Positions 28,897 to 55,533 of a stretch of DNA of 64,000 nucleotides are shown here, piece by piece. The position numbers and the translations under genes are program-made. Source of the stretch: Terriglobia bacterium (GTDB lineage: Bacteria; Acidobacteriota; Terriglobia; UBA7540); assembly GCA_050745365.1 (NCBI GenBank), contig JBOGJS010000130.1:4857-68856 (forward strand), given 5' to 3'. A model generated the notes under the pieces. That model saw only the letters and a program-made list of their open reading frames with translations, was not told where the DNA came from and searched no databases. Every line of letters begins with the position of its first letter. Positions within the stretch are counted from its first letter, which is position 1.

Positions 28897-31110
28897 ATGA
28901 AAGCAACCAACGACAACGGGGATATCCCTTTGGCTGCTCTTGAGAACAGCACAGCATGTGCCGGTGTCGCCGCGTTGTTGCCTGCGCTTCATCGCCTGGA
29001 TTGTTTATTGGACGGGGCAGTGAAGGCTCTCGATGCTGCGCAGCACTCAGCAAGCTCCCGAGCTTTTCGCGGGCTATACATAAGCCGGGAGGACGTAGCG
29101 AAACTCATGTCGCACCCGCCGGGCGCCCCGCATTTTGGCTCAACTCAAAGGCCGTGCGAGCGTCACATTGATTCCGAGGAAGGCTTTCCACCTAACTCGC
29201 CGTTTGCGTGGCTCATCCGAGAATTCGGACTGACGGACCTTGAGATTAACGTCGTCTTACTTGCTTTGGCACCCGAACTCGATCTGCGATACGAAAGAAT
29301 CTATGCCTACTTGCAAGATGACGTCACCCGAAAGTGGCCGACGGTGGATTTGGCGCTGAACCTGTTCTGCGCCTCCGCCGCAGAGAAGTTGGACCGGCGA
29401 CTTCTTTTTTCACCGGGTAGTCCGCTTATTCGCCACAACTTACTTCACTTCGTAGCGGATCCCAATCAAGTGGAGCCCCCTTTCCTAGCCTACTACCTGA
29501 AATTGGACGATCAAGTAACACGGCTGCTCTTAGGCCAACGCCACCTGGACCGTCGCGTTGAAGCATTCTGTAAACTGGTCGAGCCGGCGCTCGACTGGCG
29601 CCAACTGCCACTGCCCGATGACGTCAAAATTGCACTCCCGCGCCTGGCGGCCAAAGCTTACTCCGCGCGGGAGCCGCTTCGCTTCTATTTTCGAGGGCCA
29701 GACCGTAATCAAAAGCGTGAGGTGGCCGAGGGTCTGGCTGGAATCGTTGGCGCTAAGCTGCTTGCTGTGCGCATCGACAGGTTGCCTGAGAACTCGAAGC
29801 CCGATGGACTATGGGAACTGGTGCTTCGCGAAGCGCGGATGAACGCCGCGATCTTATATATCTCGGAGCTTGATGACTCCAGCTCACCCAACTCCTCAGC
29901 TCGGCGGCAAGAGCTCGTCGACATTTTGGCCGCGCATCAAGGAATCGTGATCATTGCTGGCCGCGTGCCGTGGGATTCCCAGGCGACCGGGACATTCGAA
30001 ATGATGCCGGTCGCGTTCGACGTTCCGCGGTTCGCGGAGCGTCGCTCGTGTTGGATGGCGGAACTTGCGCGGCGGAATGTCGCAATCCAGCCGAAAGATC
30101 TCGATCTGATGGCGGGCCGGTTCCGCCTCACCTCCACTCAAATTGTCCATGCGGTCGCGGCGGCGCAACTGACTGCTCGCTGGCGTTCCGCAGGATCCGC
30201 TTCCGACCAGGATCAAGGCGGATCTCCGACCGTAGACGAGCTCGCGGCGGCCGCTCGCAGCCAACCCGGCGAAGAACTCTCAGGTCTGGCACATCGGATC
30301 GAGTCGCGCTACTCGTGGACCGATATCGTGCTTCCACCTGACCAGATATCCCAGCTCCGCGAGATCTGCTCTCAGGCTGAATATCGGCAGGTGGTCTATG
30401 GTCAGTGGGGCTTTGACGAGAAGCTCTCTTTCGGCAAGGGCCTGAATGTCCTTTTCTCCGGTCCACCGGGAACTGGGAAAACAATGGCGGCGGAAGTAAT
30501 TGCTCATGAACTCCGCTTAGACCTCTATCGAATCGATTTGTCGCAGATCATTAGCAAATACATCGGCGAAACCGAAAAGAACCTCGATCGAATTTTCACA
30601 GCAGCAGAGAACAGCAACGCCGTCTTATTCTTCGACGAAGCCGACGCACTCTTCGGGAAACGTTCGGAAGTGCGTGATTCACATGACCGATACGCCAACA
30701 TCGAGATTTCGTACTTGCTTCAAAAAATGGAGGAGTACCAAGGCATCAGCATTCTCGCGACAAACCTACGACAGAATCTGGACGAGGCGTTTGTCCGCCG
30801 GCTTCAAGCCATTGTCGAATTCCCGTTTCCTGACGAGGAATACCGCCTGCGAATCTGGCAGAATGTGTTCCCGGAAAAGGTCCCGCTCGGAGCCGACGTT
30901 CGATATGACCTGCTCGCGGGCGAAGTGCGCTTGGCCGGCGGCAACATCAAGAATATGGCGTTGGCGGCGGCATTCTATGCTGCGGCGGATGGTGGCGTGC
31001 TCCACCTGTCTCACTTGATCCGTGCGGCGCGCCGTGAGCACCAGAAATTGGCGCGGTCGTGGAGCCCGGGCGAGTTCTTAAGGGCAGCTACTCTTTCTCA
31101 GGAAATGTGA
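28897..31110 (+). CDS. eCIS AAA+ ATPase (Afp15-like)
   Basis: 737 aa; single C-terminal AAA+ module with Walker A GPPGTGKTMAAE and Walker B VLFFDEADALFGKR; long N-terminal domain. Confidence 0.85.
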   Translation: MKATNDNGDIPLAALENSTACAGVAALLPALHRLDCLLDGAVKALDAAQHSASSRAFRGLYISREDVAKLMSHPPGAPHFGSTQRPCERHIDSEEGFPPNSPFAWLIREFGLTDLEINVVLLALAPELDLRYERIYAYLQDDVTRKWPTVDLALNLFCASAAEKLDRRLLFSPGSPLIRHNLLHFVADPNQVEPPFLAYYLKLDDQVTRLLLGQRHLDRRVEAFCKLVEPALDWRQLPLPDDVKIALPRLAAKAYSAREPLRFYFRGPDRNQKREVAEGLAGIVGAKLLAVRIDRLPENSKPDGLWELVLREARMNAAILYISELDDSSSPNSSARRQELVDILAAHQGIVIIAGRVPWDSQATGTFEMMPVAFDVPRFAERRSCWMAELARRNVAIQPKDLDLMAGRFRLTSTQIVHAVAAAQLTARWRSAGSASDQDQGGSPTVDELAAAARSQPGEELSGLAHRIESRYSWTDIVLPPDQISQLREICSQAEYRQVVYGQWGFDEKLSFGKGLNVLFSGPPGTGKTMAAEVIAHELRLDLYRIDLSQIISKYIGETEKNLDRIFTAAENSNAVLFFDEADALFGKRSEVRDSHDRYANIEISYLLQKMEEYQGISILATNLRQNLDEAFVRRLQAIVEFPFPDEEYRLRIWQNVFPEKVPLGADVRYDLLAGEVRLAGGNIKNMALAAAFYAAADGGVLHLSHLIRAARREHQKLARSWSPGEFLRAATLSQEM

Positions 31111-31134
31111 GCGTCGAGCCGGAGCAGTAACCCA

Positions 31135-55000: not shown

Positions 55001-55533
55001 GTTTCCTAAGCTCGGAACCAGGCGAGCCGTCGCTGCCCGGCAACGTGCGGGGTGGCGTGGAGCTTCGACCTGGCAAAGGGACATCCACCCAGACCTATGC
55101 CACGCTGCGCCAGCTCAGAGGGCTGGGCGTAGAAATGGGCGGGGTGCACAAGCTCGTCATGCGGGATATCGAGAATTTTCGGAGCATCTGCCGACTCGAA
55201 TGGCTGAAACGAAACTTTCCGGGGCGCTCACTCAACGAACTTGCGGCCAGTACCGATTCGATCAGCTATGCCTCCACCACAGTGGAGCAATCCGGATCGC
55301 GCATTGTGGCTGTGCGATTAACGGGCGGCAAGGTTCAACCGATCGGGAATCTCATGGGGGAATATGAAACTCGAGCTCTTGCCCAAGGAAAAGAAGAGGC
55401 CGCGAAGGTTCGGGCGGATCATGACGAAATCCTGAAGCAGTATGGCTTCGACCGCGCCACTCCGATGCTGACCAAGTTCGATCTGGAAGCTGATCTGGAG
55501 AAGATCCCGGCAGGAGGGGGTGGCACACAATGA
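52081..55533 (+). CDS. DUF4157-domain protein, putative eCIS cargo/effector (1150 aa)
   Basis: Leader GLQRNLGNQAVLRLL (52195-52239). DUF4157 block RPLDGHLKSRMESAFGQSFSGVRLHTDSSAAKLSTELNARAFTLGSDIAFGPGEY...AHELAHVVQQ (HExxH at 53137-53151). Two hydrophobic segments about 54050-54240. ~450-aa C-terminal region with no motif I recognise. Confidence 0.8.
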   Translation: MSEKTKTEQVQAKAREGSHGRTQAADGQPFQPTFNPLFGLQRNLGNQAVLRLLESGACIQRFPADQTPAPEPVGTVPRSATAPSRGATRPPLIVDDDALAIAPGQMKKSRFMAELRNRVCATANAALAAVGRSTKSCPYIEQWLAFYSAQGSGHIERAINRYAPESARANRAQEYFSIIDERVRQAVTTWAKTGRITGVPPGVPLMPGPSGPLAAEASPGTGTQGGQAETPEAPSIPGVESRPAESARDLAVSSPPVQKVLAKGRDGGSPRPTDAEAVRERLGTGRPLDGHLKSRMESAFGQSFSGVRLHTDSSAAKLSTELNARAFTLGSDIAFGPGEYQPGSLVGDALVAHELAHVVQQGAEKASSTTVARARGDYESLEEDADVSAVGALTTLWSGARGKLADIGTHAMPRLRSGLRLQRCGTTEKMPTNLTTVDAKAAWIKQTLASSTTYFETPGDVMSRTKSQAIADMLGTLSVAEFMDIQSKLDMKAVLEALEDWDAVRVGTFGPIKEKHDELNRIRADMIFETTRDRGAAESEVVTHWMFNNMVGDDIGAVLTLLGADQHLYNTVDDMPAVLELLKQRGIRRSRFHDRGWKGGDIPKGAVHFVGSVLDSSQAAKDSKGFKYGFRDLDLPKEYSEAMTKVEEAEFEKALSPGNMAFGALDYITFGIPSTIKGFVGGTISGIEDISEGHVEAGTEKLTGSLVLVVTVALGVRAFRKSARMARMIEMTEEGHAAAVKLRASIGQAGIDRVAKYVQSDTQAAFLVREQGLAGIEALEKAGGNVAAARKIIGVDVARLGPLLTADTLAGLTLETQQALATLSDKALSGMAGVDSATMESLAQTLRESSPAMRARLTALAESNPKAFGDLLRTQKSAAIDMLRTGPFSTVEDLAGEVGKSAKRVRIPVVKDGKTLYESIDPNKPPPGWTFKDTVLGKKGSVVTIRTDVTSGGATGHFIRRFNTATGELEMLEGFLSSEPGEPSLPGNVRGGVELRPGKGTSTQTYATLRQLRGLGVEMGGVHKLVMRDIENFRSICRLEWLKRNFPGRSLNELAASTDSISYASTTVEQSGSRIVAVRLTGGKVQPIGNLMGEYETRALAQGKEEAAKVRADHDEILKQYGFDRATPMLTKFDLEADLEKIPAGGGGTQ

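What the first reader, a model, noticed from the sequence alone, without database searches (positions are those of the whole stretch)
28897..55533. Complete extracellular contractile injection system (eCIS) with ATPase/terminator-first gene order
A single same-strand block with tiny or overlapping intergenic junctions encodes the following: AAA+ ATPase, DUF4255 terminator, sheath, tube, chaperone, tape-measure candidate, LysM tube initiator, gpD hub, VgrG-like spike, PAAR, gp25, two giant baseplate-J-like proteins, a gpI-like protein, four fibre-like paralogs and a DUF4157 cargo. The window contains no capsid, portal, terminase or integrase genes, and no T6SS membrane-complex or ClpV genes. 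This argues for a stand-alone eCIS rather than a prophage or T6SS. The ATPase and terminator sit at the 5' end, unlike the Afp/PVC layout as I remember it, where they are at the 3' end.
Basis: partly seen in the sequence, partly recalled or inferred. Interest (0 to 1): 0.75.

Follow-up and report, generated by a model that had tools for sequence, protein, structure and literature searches.

The report
Soil-bacterium contractile injection system gene cluster
This is a complete gene set for a phage-tail-like toxin syringe in an uncultured soil Acidobacterium; its "unusual" gene order is normal for a widespread, little-studied branch of these machines, and whether the syringe is released from the cell is not settled.

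Summary
Window 28897-55533 (+) is one tightly packed operon that encodes every core part of an Afp/PVC-type contractile injection system (CIS). All parts have profile support except the tape-measure candidate, which rests on position and a conserved C-terminus.

The window comes from a Terriglobia (Acidobacteriota) MAG. It contains no capsid, terminase, integrase, TssJLM or ClpV genes.

The ATPase/cap-first order is not special. The same roughly 20-gene order recurs in at least 29 loci from about 10 phyla, including cultured Tunturiibacter, Roseateles, Streptomyces and Nitrospira. Gene content (two cis11, split VgrG, PAAR, divergent cis12/13) fits dbeCIS subtype IIa.

"Extracellular" is inferred, not shown. 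The sheath's closest solved relatives are the cytoplasmic Streptomyces CIS and the membrane-anchored haloarchaeal CIS.

The functional unit is larger than reported. It also includes:
- an adjacent sigma-54 activator with a -24/-12 promoter;
- a candidate immunity gene;
- a conserved Lgt-fold membrane protein that travels with DUF4157 cargo genes (43 of 48 metagenomic loci).

One side finding stands out. The tail-assembly chaperone and DUF6760 are joined by a conserved -1 frameshift site (G7 slippery run, 5-nt spacer, covarying hairpin).

Verdict: a new member of a known kind, of moderate interest.

The parts
27005..28069 (+). Sigma-54-dependent activator (AAA+ and HTH, with no sensor domain); probable regulator of the operon
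   Evidence: Sigma54_activat 8e-59. PADLOC RtcR_PspF2 positions 169-480 of 481. Homologues lie next to CIS genes in L117, L096, L126, L103 and L141.
28533..28548 (+). Sigma-54-type -24/-12 promoter-like site, TGGCCTCTGCCGTGCT
   Evidence: The motif TGGC-N8-TGC[AT] occurs 3 times on the + strand of the 64-kb window. The same motif sits at the equivalent place in L117 (TGGCCTCTGAAGTGCA) and in L096 (TGGCATATTTTTTGCA).
28627..28839 (+). Small ORF (70 aa, GTG start, GGGAG ribosome-binding site); first gene after the promoter; function unknown
   Evidence: Read from the sequence. A 42%-identical ORF lies at the same place in L117. No Pfam hit.
28897..31110 (+). Cis15/Afp15-type AAA+ ATPase (cargo loading and assembly)
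   Evidence: WHD 1.7e-37, AAA 6.6e-31.
31135..31992 (+). Cis16/Afp16-type tail terminator (cap) with an extra C-terminal CarboxypepD_reg domain
   Evidence: Pvc16_N 1.2e-21, CarboxypepD_reg 3.9e-10.
32022..34037 (+). Contractile sheath (Cis2), 671 aa
   Evidence: Phage_sheath_1 and Phage_sheath_1C. PDB 8bky 1.9e-87, 8bl4, 9ezm, 7b5h, 6j0b.
34048..34473 (+). Inner tube protein (gp19/Hcp-like)
   Evidence: Phage_T4_gp19 5.2e-42. TIGR02241, and CIS5/CIS1 families below their cut-offs.
34585..34950 (+). Tail assembly chaperone (121 aa; true start MFETEHEF)
   Evidence: phrog_508 1e-9. Phage_TAC_7 0.022. The Nitrospira orthologue starts at the same Met.
34938..34985 (+). Predicted programmed -1 frameshift cassette: slippery GGGGGGG (34938-34944), 5-nt spacer, 11-bp hairpin (34950-34961 pairing with 34974-34985)
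   Evidence: In 30 loci, 97.6% of cells are paired and 3 pairs show compensatory changes. RNAalifold finds the same stem.
34945..35138 (+). DUF6760 reading frame (-1 relative to the chaperone, no credible start of its own); C-terminal extension of the frameshift product
   Evidence: DUF6760 2.8e-15. In the -1 frame in 55 of 58 loci. Natural in-frame fusions P0313 and P0320.
35110..35949 (+). Tape-measure-slot protein (about 280 aa; start uncertain)
   Evidence: No family or PDB hit. An ORF sits in this slot in about 40 loci, typically 250-335 aa, with the conserved C-terminus ...QIDRRLIAxRERMGRI.
35962..36615 (+). Tube initiator (Cis7/Afp7) with LysM
   Evidence: CIS_tube 9.7e-32, LysM 2.4e-10.
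36618..37832 (+). gp27-like half of a split VgrG (Cis8a hub)
   Evidence: VgrG_rel positions 142-349, 4.4e-15. phrog_52 1.3e-17. PDB All3320/VgrG 0.01.
37869..38549 (+). gp5-like half of the split VgrG (Cis8b spike)
   Evidence: Phage_base_V 1.9e-16. VgrG_rel positions 372-519, 1.5e-20.
38565..38861 (+). PAAR spike tip (Cis10)
   Evidence: PAAR_motif 2e-17.
38873..39289 (+). gp25-like sheath initiator (Cis9)
   Evidence: GPW_gp25 2.5e-26.
39286..42708 (+). Cis11a, a long Baseplate_J/gp6-like wedge protein (1140 aa)
   Evidence: Baseplate_J 7.5e-17. TIGR02243 2.2e-69. More than 120 full-length relatives.
42751..43095 (+). Small 'leader-only' ORF carrying the cargo N-terminal motif (W.FW.RK ... 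LQRLVGNQAV) without a DUF4157 domain
   Evidence: Conserved in about 10 close relatives. Some loci have a DUF4157 gene in this slot, and Nitrospira has none.
43127..45454 (+). Cis11b, second Baseplate_J paralog (775 aa; the start may be 43169)
   Evidence: Baseplate_J 5.7e-14. TIGR02243 1.5e-92. 30% identical to the C-terminal 500 aa of Cis11a.
45462..46466 (+). Fibre-like protein F1 (baseplate-anchor N-domain plus a divergent C-terminal part)
   Evidence: CIS13_fam N-terminus 8.8e-5. Paralogy shown.
46480..47472 (+). Fibre-like protein F2
   Evidence: CIS13_fam N-terminus 1.6e-6.
47469..49724 (+). Cis12-like baseplate protein: N-terminal NHL beta-propeller plus Tail_P2_I
   Evidence: NHL 1.1e-13, Tail_P2_I 1.5e-11. 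CIS12_fam 3.3e-36, TIGR02242 1.8e-27.
49756..50589 (+). Fibre-like protein F3
   Evidence: CIS13_fam N-terminus 7.7e-19.
50608..51999 (+). Fibre-like protein F4 (Cys-rich region, then a Pro/Ala-rich tail)
   Evidence: CIS13_fam N-terminus 2e-9. The N-domain profile hits the N-termini of All3314 (7b5h) at 2.8e-5 and of 9wt0.
52081..55533 (+). Cargo/toxin candidate: leader (LQRNLGNQAV at residues 41-50), DUF4157 with HELAH (287-363), and a rare 790-aa C-terminal domain of unknown function
   Evidence: eCIS_core 5.3e-30. The C-terminal domain has only 9 relatives, all DUF4157 proteins. No fold match.
55530..56078 (+). 182-aa ORF overlapping the cargo stop by 4 nt; candidate immunity or accessory protein
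   Evidence: A 177-aa ORF overlaps the cargo homologue P0250 in the same way. No family hit.
56113..57309 (+). Lgt-fold polytopic membrane protein with a C-terminal domain of about 130 aa; a conserved companion of DUF4157 cargo genes
   Evidence: LGT 3.1e-19. AF2 pLDDT 86; the only PDB match is E. coli Lgt 5azb at 3.4e-5. Next to CIS genes in 43 of 48 informative metagenomic loci. An LGT-DUF4157 fusion exists, P0155.

Best explanation
The block is a complete contractile injection system (CIS) operon of the Afp/PVC-like superfamily, lineage II and subtype-IIa-like, in a Terriglobia genome.

Shown by homology:
- a rigid tube (gp19-type) inside a contractile sheath;
- a baseplate made of a gp25-like protein, two gp6-like Cis11 paralogs and an NHL-Cis12 protein;
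- a split VgrG spike tipped by PAAR;
- a Pvc16-type cap.

Inferred from characterised relatives:
- A tail-assembly chaperone, made in a short form and in a -1-frameshifted long form (chaperone-DUF6760), together with a ruler protein of about 280 aa, guides tube assembly.
- The AAA+ ATPase loads the DUF4157 protein into the tube through its N-terminal leader (LQRxxGNQAV).
- Four fibre-like proteins that share one baseplate-anchor domain, plus the NHL propeller, bind a target surface.
- Binding triggers sheath contraction, which drives the spike, tube and cargo into the target.
- A 182-aa gene overlapping the cargo stop probably protects the producer, which points to bacterial targets.
- Transcription probably starts at a sigma-54 promoter (28533-28548) driven by the adjacent enhancer-binding protein.

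The most likely mode is release as free particles (eCIS), at roughly even odds. A membrane-coupled or intracellular mode is the main alternative.
For: - Every core family is recovered.
- The sheath is closest to solved CIS sheaths.
- The gene order is identical in Nitrospira, Pyrinomonadaceae and dozens of other genomes.
- Two afp11 copies, a split afp8 and a PAAR gene match the subtype descriptions in PMC6899500.
- The fibre N-domain matches the structurally resolved baseplate-attached proteins All3314 and 9wt0 and CIS13_fam. Loci with Tail_P2_I and up to 4-5 fibres are described in PMC12923769.
- The cargo architecture (N-terminal region, DUF4157, C-terminal domain) and loading that depends on the N-terminal region are shown for AlgoCIS.
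- The leader motif recurs in cargo genes of many loci.
- The cargo and the small overlapping ORF are conserved together. Toxin-immunity pairs of this type are shown in haloarchaea.
- Sigma-54 activator and promoter.
- Frameshift.
- No fibre or baseplate protein has a TM-like segment.
- There are no close relatives in 2.9 million viral contigs.
Against: - Nothing here shows particle release.
- No lysis cassette was seen among ORFs of at least 120 aa.
- The closest experimentally studied relatives by sheath similarity act inside the cell or from the membrane.
- A conserved polytopic membrane protein belongs to the cargo module.
- The tape-measure assignment rests only on position, a narrow length range and a conserved C-terminus.
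- The function of the cargo C-terminal domain is unknown.
- The subtype was assigned from gene content, not from a phylogeny against dbeCIS.
Confidence: 0.85

Rival explanations
1. The same machine, but not extracellular. It either fires while docked to the producer's cytoplasmic membrane (T6SS-like, as in haloarchaea, T6SSiv and the thylakoid-anchored tCIS) or acts in the cytoplasm (as Streptomyces CIS-Sc does). The Lgt-fold membrane protein would serve as the docking or firing partner.
For: - The sheath is closest to 8bky/8bl4 (cytoplasmic CIS-Sc) and 9ezm (haloarchaeal T6SS-like CIS).
- The haloarchaeal system also has two cis11 genes, DUF4157 toxins with downstream immunity genes, and a cluster-linked membrane protein with 6 TM helices plus a cytoplasmic domain of about 150 aa.
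- The Lgt-like protein here (about 7 TM helices plus a 130-aa domain) is linked to CIS genes in 43 of 48 loci.
- It lies directly upstream of cis16 in L047 and L059.
- No lysis genes were noticed.
Against: - Four soluble fibre-like proteins and an NHL propeller, none with a TM helix, fit recognition of an external target.
- The Lgt-like gene travels with cargo genes, not baseplate genes.
- It is fused to DUF4157 in P0155.
- It keeps the Lgt residues R143, Y235, R239 and E243, which suggests an enzyme rather than a passive anchor.
- No homology to Hbor_38620 or CisA could be tested.
Confidence: 0.35
2. A defective prophage tail region or an R-type tailocin (a bacteriocin that kills by puncture alone, without cargo).
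For: The sheath, tube, baseplate, chaperone frameshift and ruler are all phage-tail heritage.
Against: - The AAA+ ATPase, Pvc16 cap and DUF4157 cargo are CIS hallmarks that Chen et al. use to exclude phages and R-type bacteriocins.
- There are no capsid, portal, terminase, integrase or lysis families in 64 kb.
- IMG/VR yields only short, weak domain matches.
Confidence: 0.03
3. A canonical type VI secretion system (T6SS i-iii).
For: The shared module of sheath, Hcp-like tube, VgrG, PAAR, gp25 (TssE-like) and an AAA+ ATPase.
Against: - No TssJ/L/M, TssA, TssF/G/K or ClpV families were detected.
- The locus has Afp11, Afp16 and a ruler-slot gene, which T6SS i-iii lack (PMC6899500).
Confidence: 0.02

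Closest known systems
dbeCIS lineage II, subtype IIa (Chen et al. 2019, PMC6899500)
   Same: Two afp11 copies with the upstream one longer, afp8 split into gp27 and gp5 ORFs, PAAR present, divergent afp12/afp13 present, and extra subtype-specific genes without known domains.
   Different: The assignment rests on gene content only. No Afp11 phylogeny against dbeCIS was run. Acidobacteriota are not mentioned in the main texts searched.
Afp (Serratia entomophila) and PVC (Photorhabdus), subtype Ia eCIS
   Same: The same eight core components, plus an AAA+ ATPase, a cap and cargo encoded at the 3' end.
   Different: - Afp15 and Afp16 lie at the 3' end of the structural genes there (general knowledge) and at the 5' end here.
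- Afp/PVC have a single afp11, a contiguous VgrG, adenovirus-like fibres (eBAP1) and three sheath paralogs.
- The sheath similarity is lower (1e-39 to 5e-46).
Streptomyces coelicolor/venezuelae CIS-Sc (PDB 8bky, 8bl4; PMC10066040)
   Same: The closest solved sheath (1.9e-87). Both belong to lineage II.
   Different: CIS-Sc is subtype IId and cytoplasmic. Its authors describe it as lacking a conventional fibre and a typical tape measure, and it needs the membrane protein CisA. The present locus has four fibre-like genes, two cis11 genes and a split VgrG.
Haloarchaeal T6SS-like CIS (Halogeometricum borinquense; PDB 9ezm; PMC11566945)
   Same: Two cis11 genes, Cis12/13-like proteins, DUF4157 toxins with downstream protective partners, and a cluster-linked polytopic membrane protein.
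   Different: It is archaeal, and its anchoring to the cytoplasmic membrane and contact dependence have been shown. Whether Hbor_38620 is related to the Lgt-like protein here was not testable.
Anabaena tCIS (PDB 7b5h) and AlgoCIS (7adz, 9wt0)
   Same: The N-terminal anchor domain of the four paralogs matches the N-termini of All3314 and of the 9wt0 PKD protein. The cargo plan (disordered N-terminal region, DUF4157, C-terminal domain) is that of AlgoCIS Cgo1 and Cgo2.
   Different: - tCIS is anchored to thylakoids by a Cis13 TM helix, and no TM helix is present here.
- Those systems belong to lineage I.
- They are not known to have a TAC-DUF6760 frameshift.
Phage tail assembly chaperone frameshifts (lambda G/GT, P2 E/E+E')
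   Same: A -1 frameshift near the 3' end of the chaperone gene, just upstream of the ruler gene, with a slippery heptamer and a downstream structure. The chaperone gives weak Phage_TAC_7 and strong phrog_508 hits.
   Different: Here it lies in a non-viral CIS, uses a G7 heptamer, and the extension is DUF6760. No paper in the searchable library mentions DUF6760 or a CIS frameshift.
E. coli Lgt (PDB 5azb)
   Same: An Lgt fold (Foldseek 3.4e-5, TM-score 0.58 on the target). R143, Y235, R239, E243 and R246 are conserved as R130, Y207, R211, E215 and R218.
   Different: - 16% identity.
- N146 and E151 are replaced by an invariant Cys cluster (GCxxxGCCHG).
- There is an extra C-terminal alpha/beta domain of about 130 aa.
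- It is embedded in CIS cargo modules.

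Membership tests
Afp/PVC-like CIS ('eCIS') superfamily, as defined by Chen et al. 2019 | The eight-component core: Afp1/5 tube, Afp2-4 sheath, Afp7, Afp8, Afp9, Afp11, Afp15 and Afp16. | tested here: met
   All eight are recovered with profile hits. The definition is quoted.
Afp/PVC-like CIS ('eCIS') superfamily | No phage head or packaging genes and no T6SS membrane complex in the locus. 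| tested here: met
   Pfam scans of all ORFs of at least 120 aa in the 64-kb window. The remaining 51 kb of the 115-kb contig was not seen.
Extracellular mode of action (a true eCIS) | Particles released from the producer that act on targets without cell contact. | not testable with these tools
   There are only indirect hints. For: soluble fibre-like proteins. Against: the nearest studied relatives are not extracellular, and a membrane protein is linked to the locus.
dbeCIS subtype IIa | Two afp11 copies. | tested here: met
   39286-42708 and 43127-45454, 30% identical over about 500 aa.
dbeCIS subtype IIa | afp8 split into gp27 and gp5 ORFs, PAAR present, and divergent afp12/13 present. | tested here: met
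   VgrG_rel positions 142-349 and 372-519 lie on separate ORFs. PAAR. CIS12_fam and CIS13_fam partial hits.
dbeCIS subtype IIa | Placement in the IIa clade of the Afp11 tree. | not tested
Canonical T6SS (i-iii) | TssJ/L/M membrane complex, TssA, TssF/G/K and ClpV. | tested here: not met
   None was detected. Afp11, Afp16 and a ruler-slot gene are present instead.
Prophage or R-type tailocin | Capsid, portal, terminase or integrase genes (prophage); absence of an AAA+ ATPase and cargo (tailocin). | tested here: not met
   No head or integration genes. An AAA+ ATPase, a Pvc16 cap and DUF4157 are present. There are no close relatives in IMG/VR.
eBAP3/4-type baseplate-anchored fibres (Nachmias et al. 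2026) | A conserved N-terminal anchor domain related to the tCIS crown N-terminus, in loci that use Tail_P2_I, with several fibres per locus. | tested here: inconclusive
   The profile of the N-domain hits residues 12-85 of All3314 at 2.8e-5. Tail_P2_I is present and there are four paralogs. The published eBAP HMMs were not available and no structure was predicted. There was no DUF6519 (eBAP5) hit.
Programmed -1 frameshift tail-assembly chaperones (G/GT-like) | A slippery X_XXY_YYZ heptamer at the end of the chaperone ORF, with a conserved -1 ORF lacking its own start. | tested here: met
   G_GGG_GGG at 34938-34944. The -1 frame is used in 55 of 58 loci, and a G6-7 heptamer occurs in at least 36.
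Programmed -1 frameshift tail-assembly chaperones (G/GT-like) | A downstream stimulatory RNA structure at the proper spacing. | tested here: met
   An 11-bp hairpin 5 nt downstream. 97.6% of cells are paired, 3 pairs show compensatory changes, slid controls give 29-65% pairing, and RNAalifold agrees.
Programmed -1 frameshift tail-assembly chaperones (G/GT-like) | The fusion protein is actually made. | not testable with these tools
   Indirect support only: natural in-frame TAC-DUF6760 fusions exist (P0313 of 150 aa, P0320 of 159 aa).
Lgt (prolipoprotein diacylglyceryl transferase) | The Lgt fold and its key residues (R143, R239, per my recollection of Mao et al. 2016). | tested here: met
   5azb is the only significant fold match. 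R130 and R211 align with R143 and R239 and are invariant in 36 homologues.
Lgt (prolipoprotein diacylglyceryl transferase) | Full signature motif GRxGNFxNxExxG and housekeeping enzymatic activity. | tested here: not met
   N146 and E151 are replaced by invariant Cys (GRxGCLxxGCCHG). The family profile finds no Lgt chain in the PDB by sequence. Activity itself was not testable.

The most novel reading that the evidence does not exclude
This widespread lineage, found mostly in soil genomes and MAGs, may not be a free-floating eCIS. It could instead be a membrane-coupled system. In that reading, a dedicated Lgt-fold enzyme is an obligatory partner of the DUF4157 cargo. It is conserved next to cargo genes, sometimes fused to DUF4157, and keeps the residues that I recall as phosphatidylglycerol-binding arginines in Lgt. 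Its role might be to dock, lipid-modify or release cargo or particles at the cytoplasmic membrane. That would be a new class of CIS accessory factor and possibly a new mode of action in diderm bacteria. In addition, assembly of these non-viral machines would depend on a conserved phage-style -1 ribosomal frameshift.
Probability: 0.2. Interest if true: 0.7.

Novelty: new member of a known kind. Interest (0 to 1): 0.42.

Why it matters
As reported, the finding adds one more member (a Terriglobia MAG) to a known superfamily, and its gene order is typical of its lineage. That alone is of modest value.

The comparative work suggests this lineage deserves attention for several reasons.

- **Distribution.** It spans about 10 phyla, mostly in soil and other environmental genomes and MAGs, and no member that I could identify has been studied experimentally.
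- **Cultured carriers.** Tunturiibacter lichenicola, Roseateles chitinivorans, Mitsuaria, Methylobacterium frigidaeris and several actinomycetes carry it. They make the open question of mode of action (free particle or membrane-coupled) directly testable.
- **Three features I found no report of in the searchable literature:**
  - a G7 -1 frameshift site with a hairpin that joins the tail chaperone to DUF6760;
  - an Lgt-fold membrane protein tied to DUF4157 cargo genes;
  - a sigma-54 activator and promoter.

  These give concrete handles for induction, assembly and cargo biology, and for engineering CIS as delivery tools.

Tried and rejected
- **Strict sigma-54 consensus.** TGGCAC-N5-TTGCW with up to 2 mismatches gave 38 hits against 34 expected and nothing upstream of the operon. 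A relaxed pattern that keeps the GG/GC spacing then found the site.
- **Sigma-70 promoter and terminator scans at both operon ends.** Nothing above the shuffled background.
- **PDB sequence searches.** Fibre F2, the cargo and the ruler-slot protein gave no meaningful hits.
- **Cargo C-terminal domain.** Only 9 relatives were found. The AF2 model had pLDDT 63 and pTM 0.39, and Foldseek gave no match below E = 0.2. Its function remains unknown.
- **Lgt-like family profile against PDB sequences.** No Lgt hit. Only the fold search and hhalign linked it to Lgt.
- **Cargo lipidation at a lipobox.** Rejected. The Cys after the leader (residue 57) is Val or Ile in other cargo leaders, and there is no signal peptide.
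- **Are the upstream DUF2589 genes and the two ORFs of about 1040 aa part of the system?** No homologues occur in any of the 165 related loci then held. I treat them as neighbours only.
- **PADLOC on upstream genes.** Only the activator matched strongly, plus a weak CARF hit.
- **dbeCIS supplementary tables for subtype membership.** Not held.
- **L052 as an in-frame TAC-DUF6760 fusion.** It reads through in one frame, but it comes from a MAG and could be an assembly indel. I relied on P0313 and P0320 instead.

Full report
**Source and observation.** Exact-sequence look-up places the window on a 115-kb contig of a Terriglobia (Acidobacteriota) MAG, with NCBI proteins MGH93262xx. The + strand from 28897 to 55533 is a continuous run of ORFs with gaps of -4 to 159 nt.

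- AAA+ ATPase with an N-terminal winged-helix domain;
- Pvc16_N terminator with an extra CarboxypepD_reg domain;
- sheath;
- gp19-type tube;
- CIS_tube + LysM initiator;
- Phage_base_V spike;
- PAAR;
- gp25;
- two Baseplate_J proteins (1140 and 775 aa);
- an NHL + Tail_P2_I protein;
- a 1150-aa DUF4157/eCIS_core protein with an HELAH motif.

The 'gpD hub' has no Pfam hit. From its true start at 36618 it matches positions 142-349 of NCBIfam VgrG_rel, and the spike ORF matches positions 372-519. Together they form a split VgrG (weak PDB support). The chaperone is phrog_508 at 1e-9.

Pfam scans of all other ORFs of at least 120 aa in the window found housekeeping genes, conflict-system-like genes and regulators. 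They found no capsid, portal, terminase, integrase, TssJLM or ClpV.

**The gene order is the lineage's norm.** The long Cis11a has more than 120 full-length relatives at 49-86% identity in public data.
- In a complete Nitrospira genome and in a Pyrinomonadaceae MAG, the called genes follow the same order from ATPase to DUF4157 cargo.
- A scan of one genome per species found 505 loci that encode a relative.
- Mapping this operon's proteins onto the best 80 showed the string ATPase-cap-sheath-tube-chaperone-DUF6760-(ruler)-LysM-hub-spike-PAAR-gp25-J1-J2-F1-F2-P2I-F3-F4-(cargo) in 29 loci that reach the 5' end.
- In the other core-family loci that cover the region, the cap gene likewise sits directly upstream of the sheath gene.
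- Hosts include Acidobacteriota, Nitrospirota, Actinomycetota, Pseudomonadota, Gemmatimonadota, Chloroflexota, Planctomycetota and Verrucomicrobiota.
- Cultured carriers include Tunturiibacter lichenicola, Roseateles chitinivorans, Mitsuaria, Methylobacterium frigidaeris, Streptomyces albiflavescens, Nonomuraea and Streptosporangium.

The ATPase/terminator-first layout is therefore a lineage character, not a peculiarity of this locus.

**Classification.** Chen et al. 2019 define eight core components, and all are present here. They state that subtypes IIa and IIc carry two afp11 copies. Subtypes IIa, IIb and IIc split afp8 into gp27 and gp5 ORFs. PAAR is missing only from IIb. Divergent afp12/13 occur in IIa and IIb. 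The intersection of these criteria is IIa. This is an inference from gene content; no tree was built.

IMG/VR contains only short, weak matches to an internal Cis11a domain. That argues against a viral context.

**Baseplate periphery.** The four 'fibre-like paralogs' share only an N-terminal domain of about 100 aa.
- That domain hits the first ~100 positions of NCBIfam CIS13_fam, at 8.8e-5 to 7.7e-19.
- A 41-sequence profile of it matches residues 12-85 of All3314 in the Anabaena tCIS structure (2.8e-5) and the N-terminus of a PKD protein in entry 9wt0.
- In the tCIS, the Cis13 N-terminal domain is a baseplate-binding module (PMC8894136).
- Nachmias et al. 2026 describe anchor domains (eBAP3-5) in Tail_P2_I-type loci that accommodate up to four fibres, with up to five fibre genes per locus.

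None of the paralogs, nor any structural protein, has a TM-like segment. This differs from the thylakoid-anchoring Cis13. The NHL propeller fused to Cis12 is conserved in relatives.

**Cargo module.** The cargo has an N-terminal region of about 286 aa with the motif LQRNLGNQAV, then DUF4157, then a 790-aa C-terminal domain.
- This is the plan of AlgoCIS Cgo1 and Cgo2, in which the N-terminal region is required for loading and DUF4157 is dispensable.
- The leader motif recurs about 40-60 residues from the N-terminus of DUF4157 proteins in many related bacterial and archaeal loci.
- In the whole window, only two ORFs carry it: the cargo and a small ORF between the two cis11 genes.
- That small ORF is conserved in about 10 close relatives as a 'leader-only' peptide of about 60 aa. 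Some other loci have a DUF4157 gene in the same slot, and Nitrospira has nothing there.
- The C-terminal domain is rare: 9 clusters, all DUF4157 proteins. It gave no usable fold assignment.
- A 182-aa ORF overlaps the cargo stop by 4 nt. A cargo homologue elsewhere is followed in the same way by a 177-aa ORF. This resembles the DUF4157 toxin/partner pairs validated in haloarchaea.

**Lgt-like membrane protein.** The next gene (56113-57309) hits Pfam LGT at 3e-19.
- Homologues lie directly upstream of cis16 in an Acidobacteriota locus and a Chloroflexota locus.
- A metagenome scan found 487 relatives. Of 48 loci with at least 2.5 kb of flank, 43 carry CIS genes. Thirty-eight of these carry DUF4157 genes, and all 101 cargo-like hits lie on the same strand.
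- One relative is an LGT-DUF4157 fusion.
- The AF2 model (pLDDT 86) matches only E. coli Lgt (5azb, 3.4e-5) and adds a C-terminal alpha/beta domain.
- The hhalign match to E. coli Lgt is weak (probability 36%, E 3.8e-4, 127 columns). On that alignment, R143, Y235, R239 and E243 are kept as invariant residues, while N146 and E151 become an invariant Cys cluster.
- Geller et al.'s enrichment table lists LGT as not enriched in eCIS operons (2 hits). No paper in the library joins the two topics.

Its role (anchor, cargo processing, immunity or release) is open.

**Regulation.** The gene just upstream (27005-28069) is a sigma-54 enhancer-binding protein without a sensor domain. Homologues flank CIS genes in five other loci. 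A -24/-12 motif lies at 28533-28548. Nearly the same sequence occupies the equivalent position in L117, and a near-consensus site occurs in L096. The motif occurs only three times on the + strand of the window. A conserved 70-aa ORF follows it.

**Frameshift.** The chaperone ORF ends ...GCG GGG GGG TTC TAG. DUF6760 (2.8e-15) continues in the -1 frame and has no start of its own.
- Across related loci, DUF6760 is in the -1 frame in 55 of 58, with GGGGGGG or GGGGGGA near the chaperone stop in at least 36.
- Five nucleotides downstream lies an 11-bp hairpin. In 30 loci 97.6% of cells are paired, and three pairs show compensatory changes. Slid controls give 29-65% pairing, and RNAalifold predicts the same stem.
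- Called DUF6760 proteins have a median length of 69 aa, which suggests gene callers are inventing starts. In-frame chaperone-DUF6760 fusions do exist (P0313, P0320).
- The ORF in the ruler slot that follows is present in about 40 loci. It is typically 250-335 aa and ends in the conserved motif ...QIDRRLIAxRERMGRI.

This is the phage G/GT (or E/E+E') arrangement in a non-viral machine. I found no report of it.

**Mode of action.** Identity as a CIS is secure. 'Extracellular' is not.
- For release: several soluble fibre-like proteins and a propeller on the baseplate, and no TM anchors.
- Against: the best solved sheath matches are the cytoplasmic CIS-Sc and the membrane-anchored haloarchaeal system; the cluster-linked membrane protein; and no visible lysis genes.

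I put free-particle action at about even odds and a membrane-coupled or intracellular mode at about one in three.

**Verdict.** This is a new member of a known kind. The side observations (frameshift, Lgt-like partner, sigma-54 control) are the most interesting outputs.

Noticed in passing
window 34585-35138 (slippery site 34938-34944; hairpin 34950-34985); also L001 and about 55 other loci: The tail-assembly chaperone and DUF6760 are linked by a conserved -1 frameshift cassette: a G7 heptamer, a 5-nt spacer and a covarying 11-bp hairpin. Gene callers annotate DUF6760 as orphan ORFs of about 69 aa. I found no report of this for CIS.
   Followed up: yes
window 56113-57309; L047:1596-2777; L059:1010-2281; L084-L163: An Lgt-fold membrane protein with an invariant GCxxxGCCHG motif and an extra C-terminal domain is almost always encoded beside DUF4157 cargo or CIS genes (43 of 48 informative metagenomic loci). 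One homologue is fused to DUF4157. Pfam LGT was scored as not enriched in eCIS operons by Geller et al. 2021.
   Followed up: yes
window 42751-43095; L003:3434-3619, L023, L036 and others: A small ORF between the two cis11 genes carries the cargo leader (W.FW.RK...LQRLVGNQAV) but has no DUF4157 domain. Some related loci have a DUF4157 gene in this slot, and Nitrospira has nothing there.
   Followed up: partly
window 27005-28069, 28533-28548, 28627-28839; L117:866-2288; L096:1144: A sensor-less sigma-54 activator, a conserved -24/-12 motif and a conserved 70-aa ORF precede the operon. The same trio precedes a CIS with a different gene order in L117.
   Followed up: partly
window 35110-35949 and about 40 related loci: The ruler-slot protein is poorly conserved except for a C-terminal motif of about 25 aa (...LTDQVIRQIDRRLIAxRERMGRI) and a narrow length range (typically 250-335 aa).
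   Followed up: partly
window 52081-55533: The public annotation carries only a 770-aa product (P0247) that starts at residue 381 and so lacks the leader and DUF4157. Homologues of 1078-1137 aa support the full 1150-aa ORF.
   Followed up: partly
window 22831-26860 (- strand) and 16344-22615 (+ strand): Three DUF2589 paralogs, a 342-aa ORF with a weak CARF-like hit, and two ORFs of about 1040 aa (the second with a weak patatin hit) lie upstream. No homologues occur in any related CIS locus, so they are probably unrelated neighbours.
   Followed up: partly
window 9272-12612 and 14613-15586: An EAD8-trypsin protein is followed by a 748-aa protein with a weak EAD8 hit. Nearby lie a MafB19-like/dCMP-type deaminase and a nucleoside 2-deoxyribosyltransferase. 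This looks like a small conflict or defence island.
   Followed up: no
window 32022-34037 and 31135-31992: The sheath is 671 aa against 534 aa in CIS-Sc and has an Ala/Ser/Thr-rich insertion (roughly residues 100-330). The cap carries an extra CarboxypepD_reg domain, also seen in Nitrospira. These are probably surface decorations of the particle.
   Followed up: no
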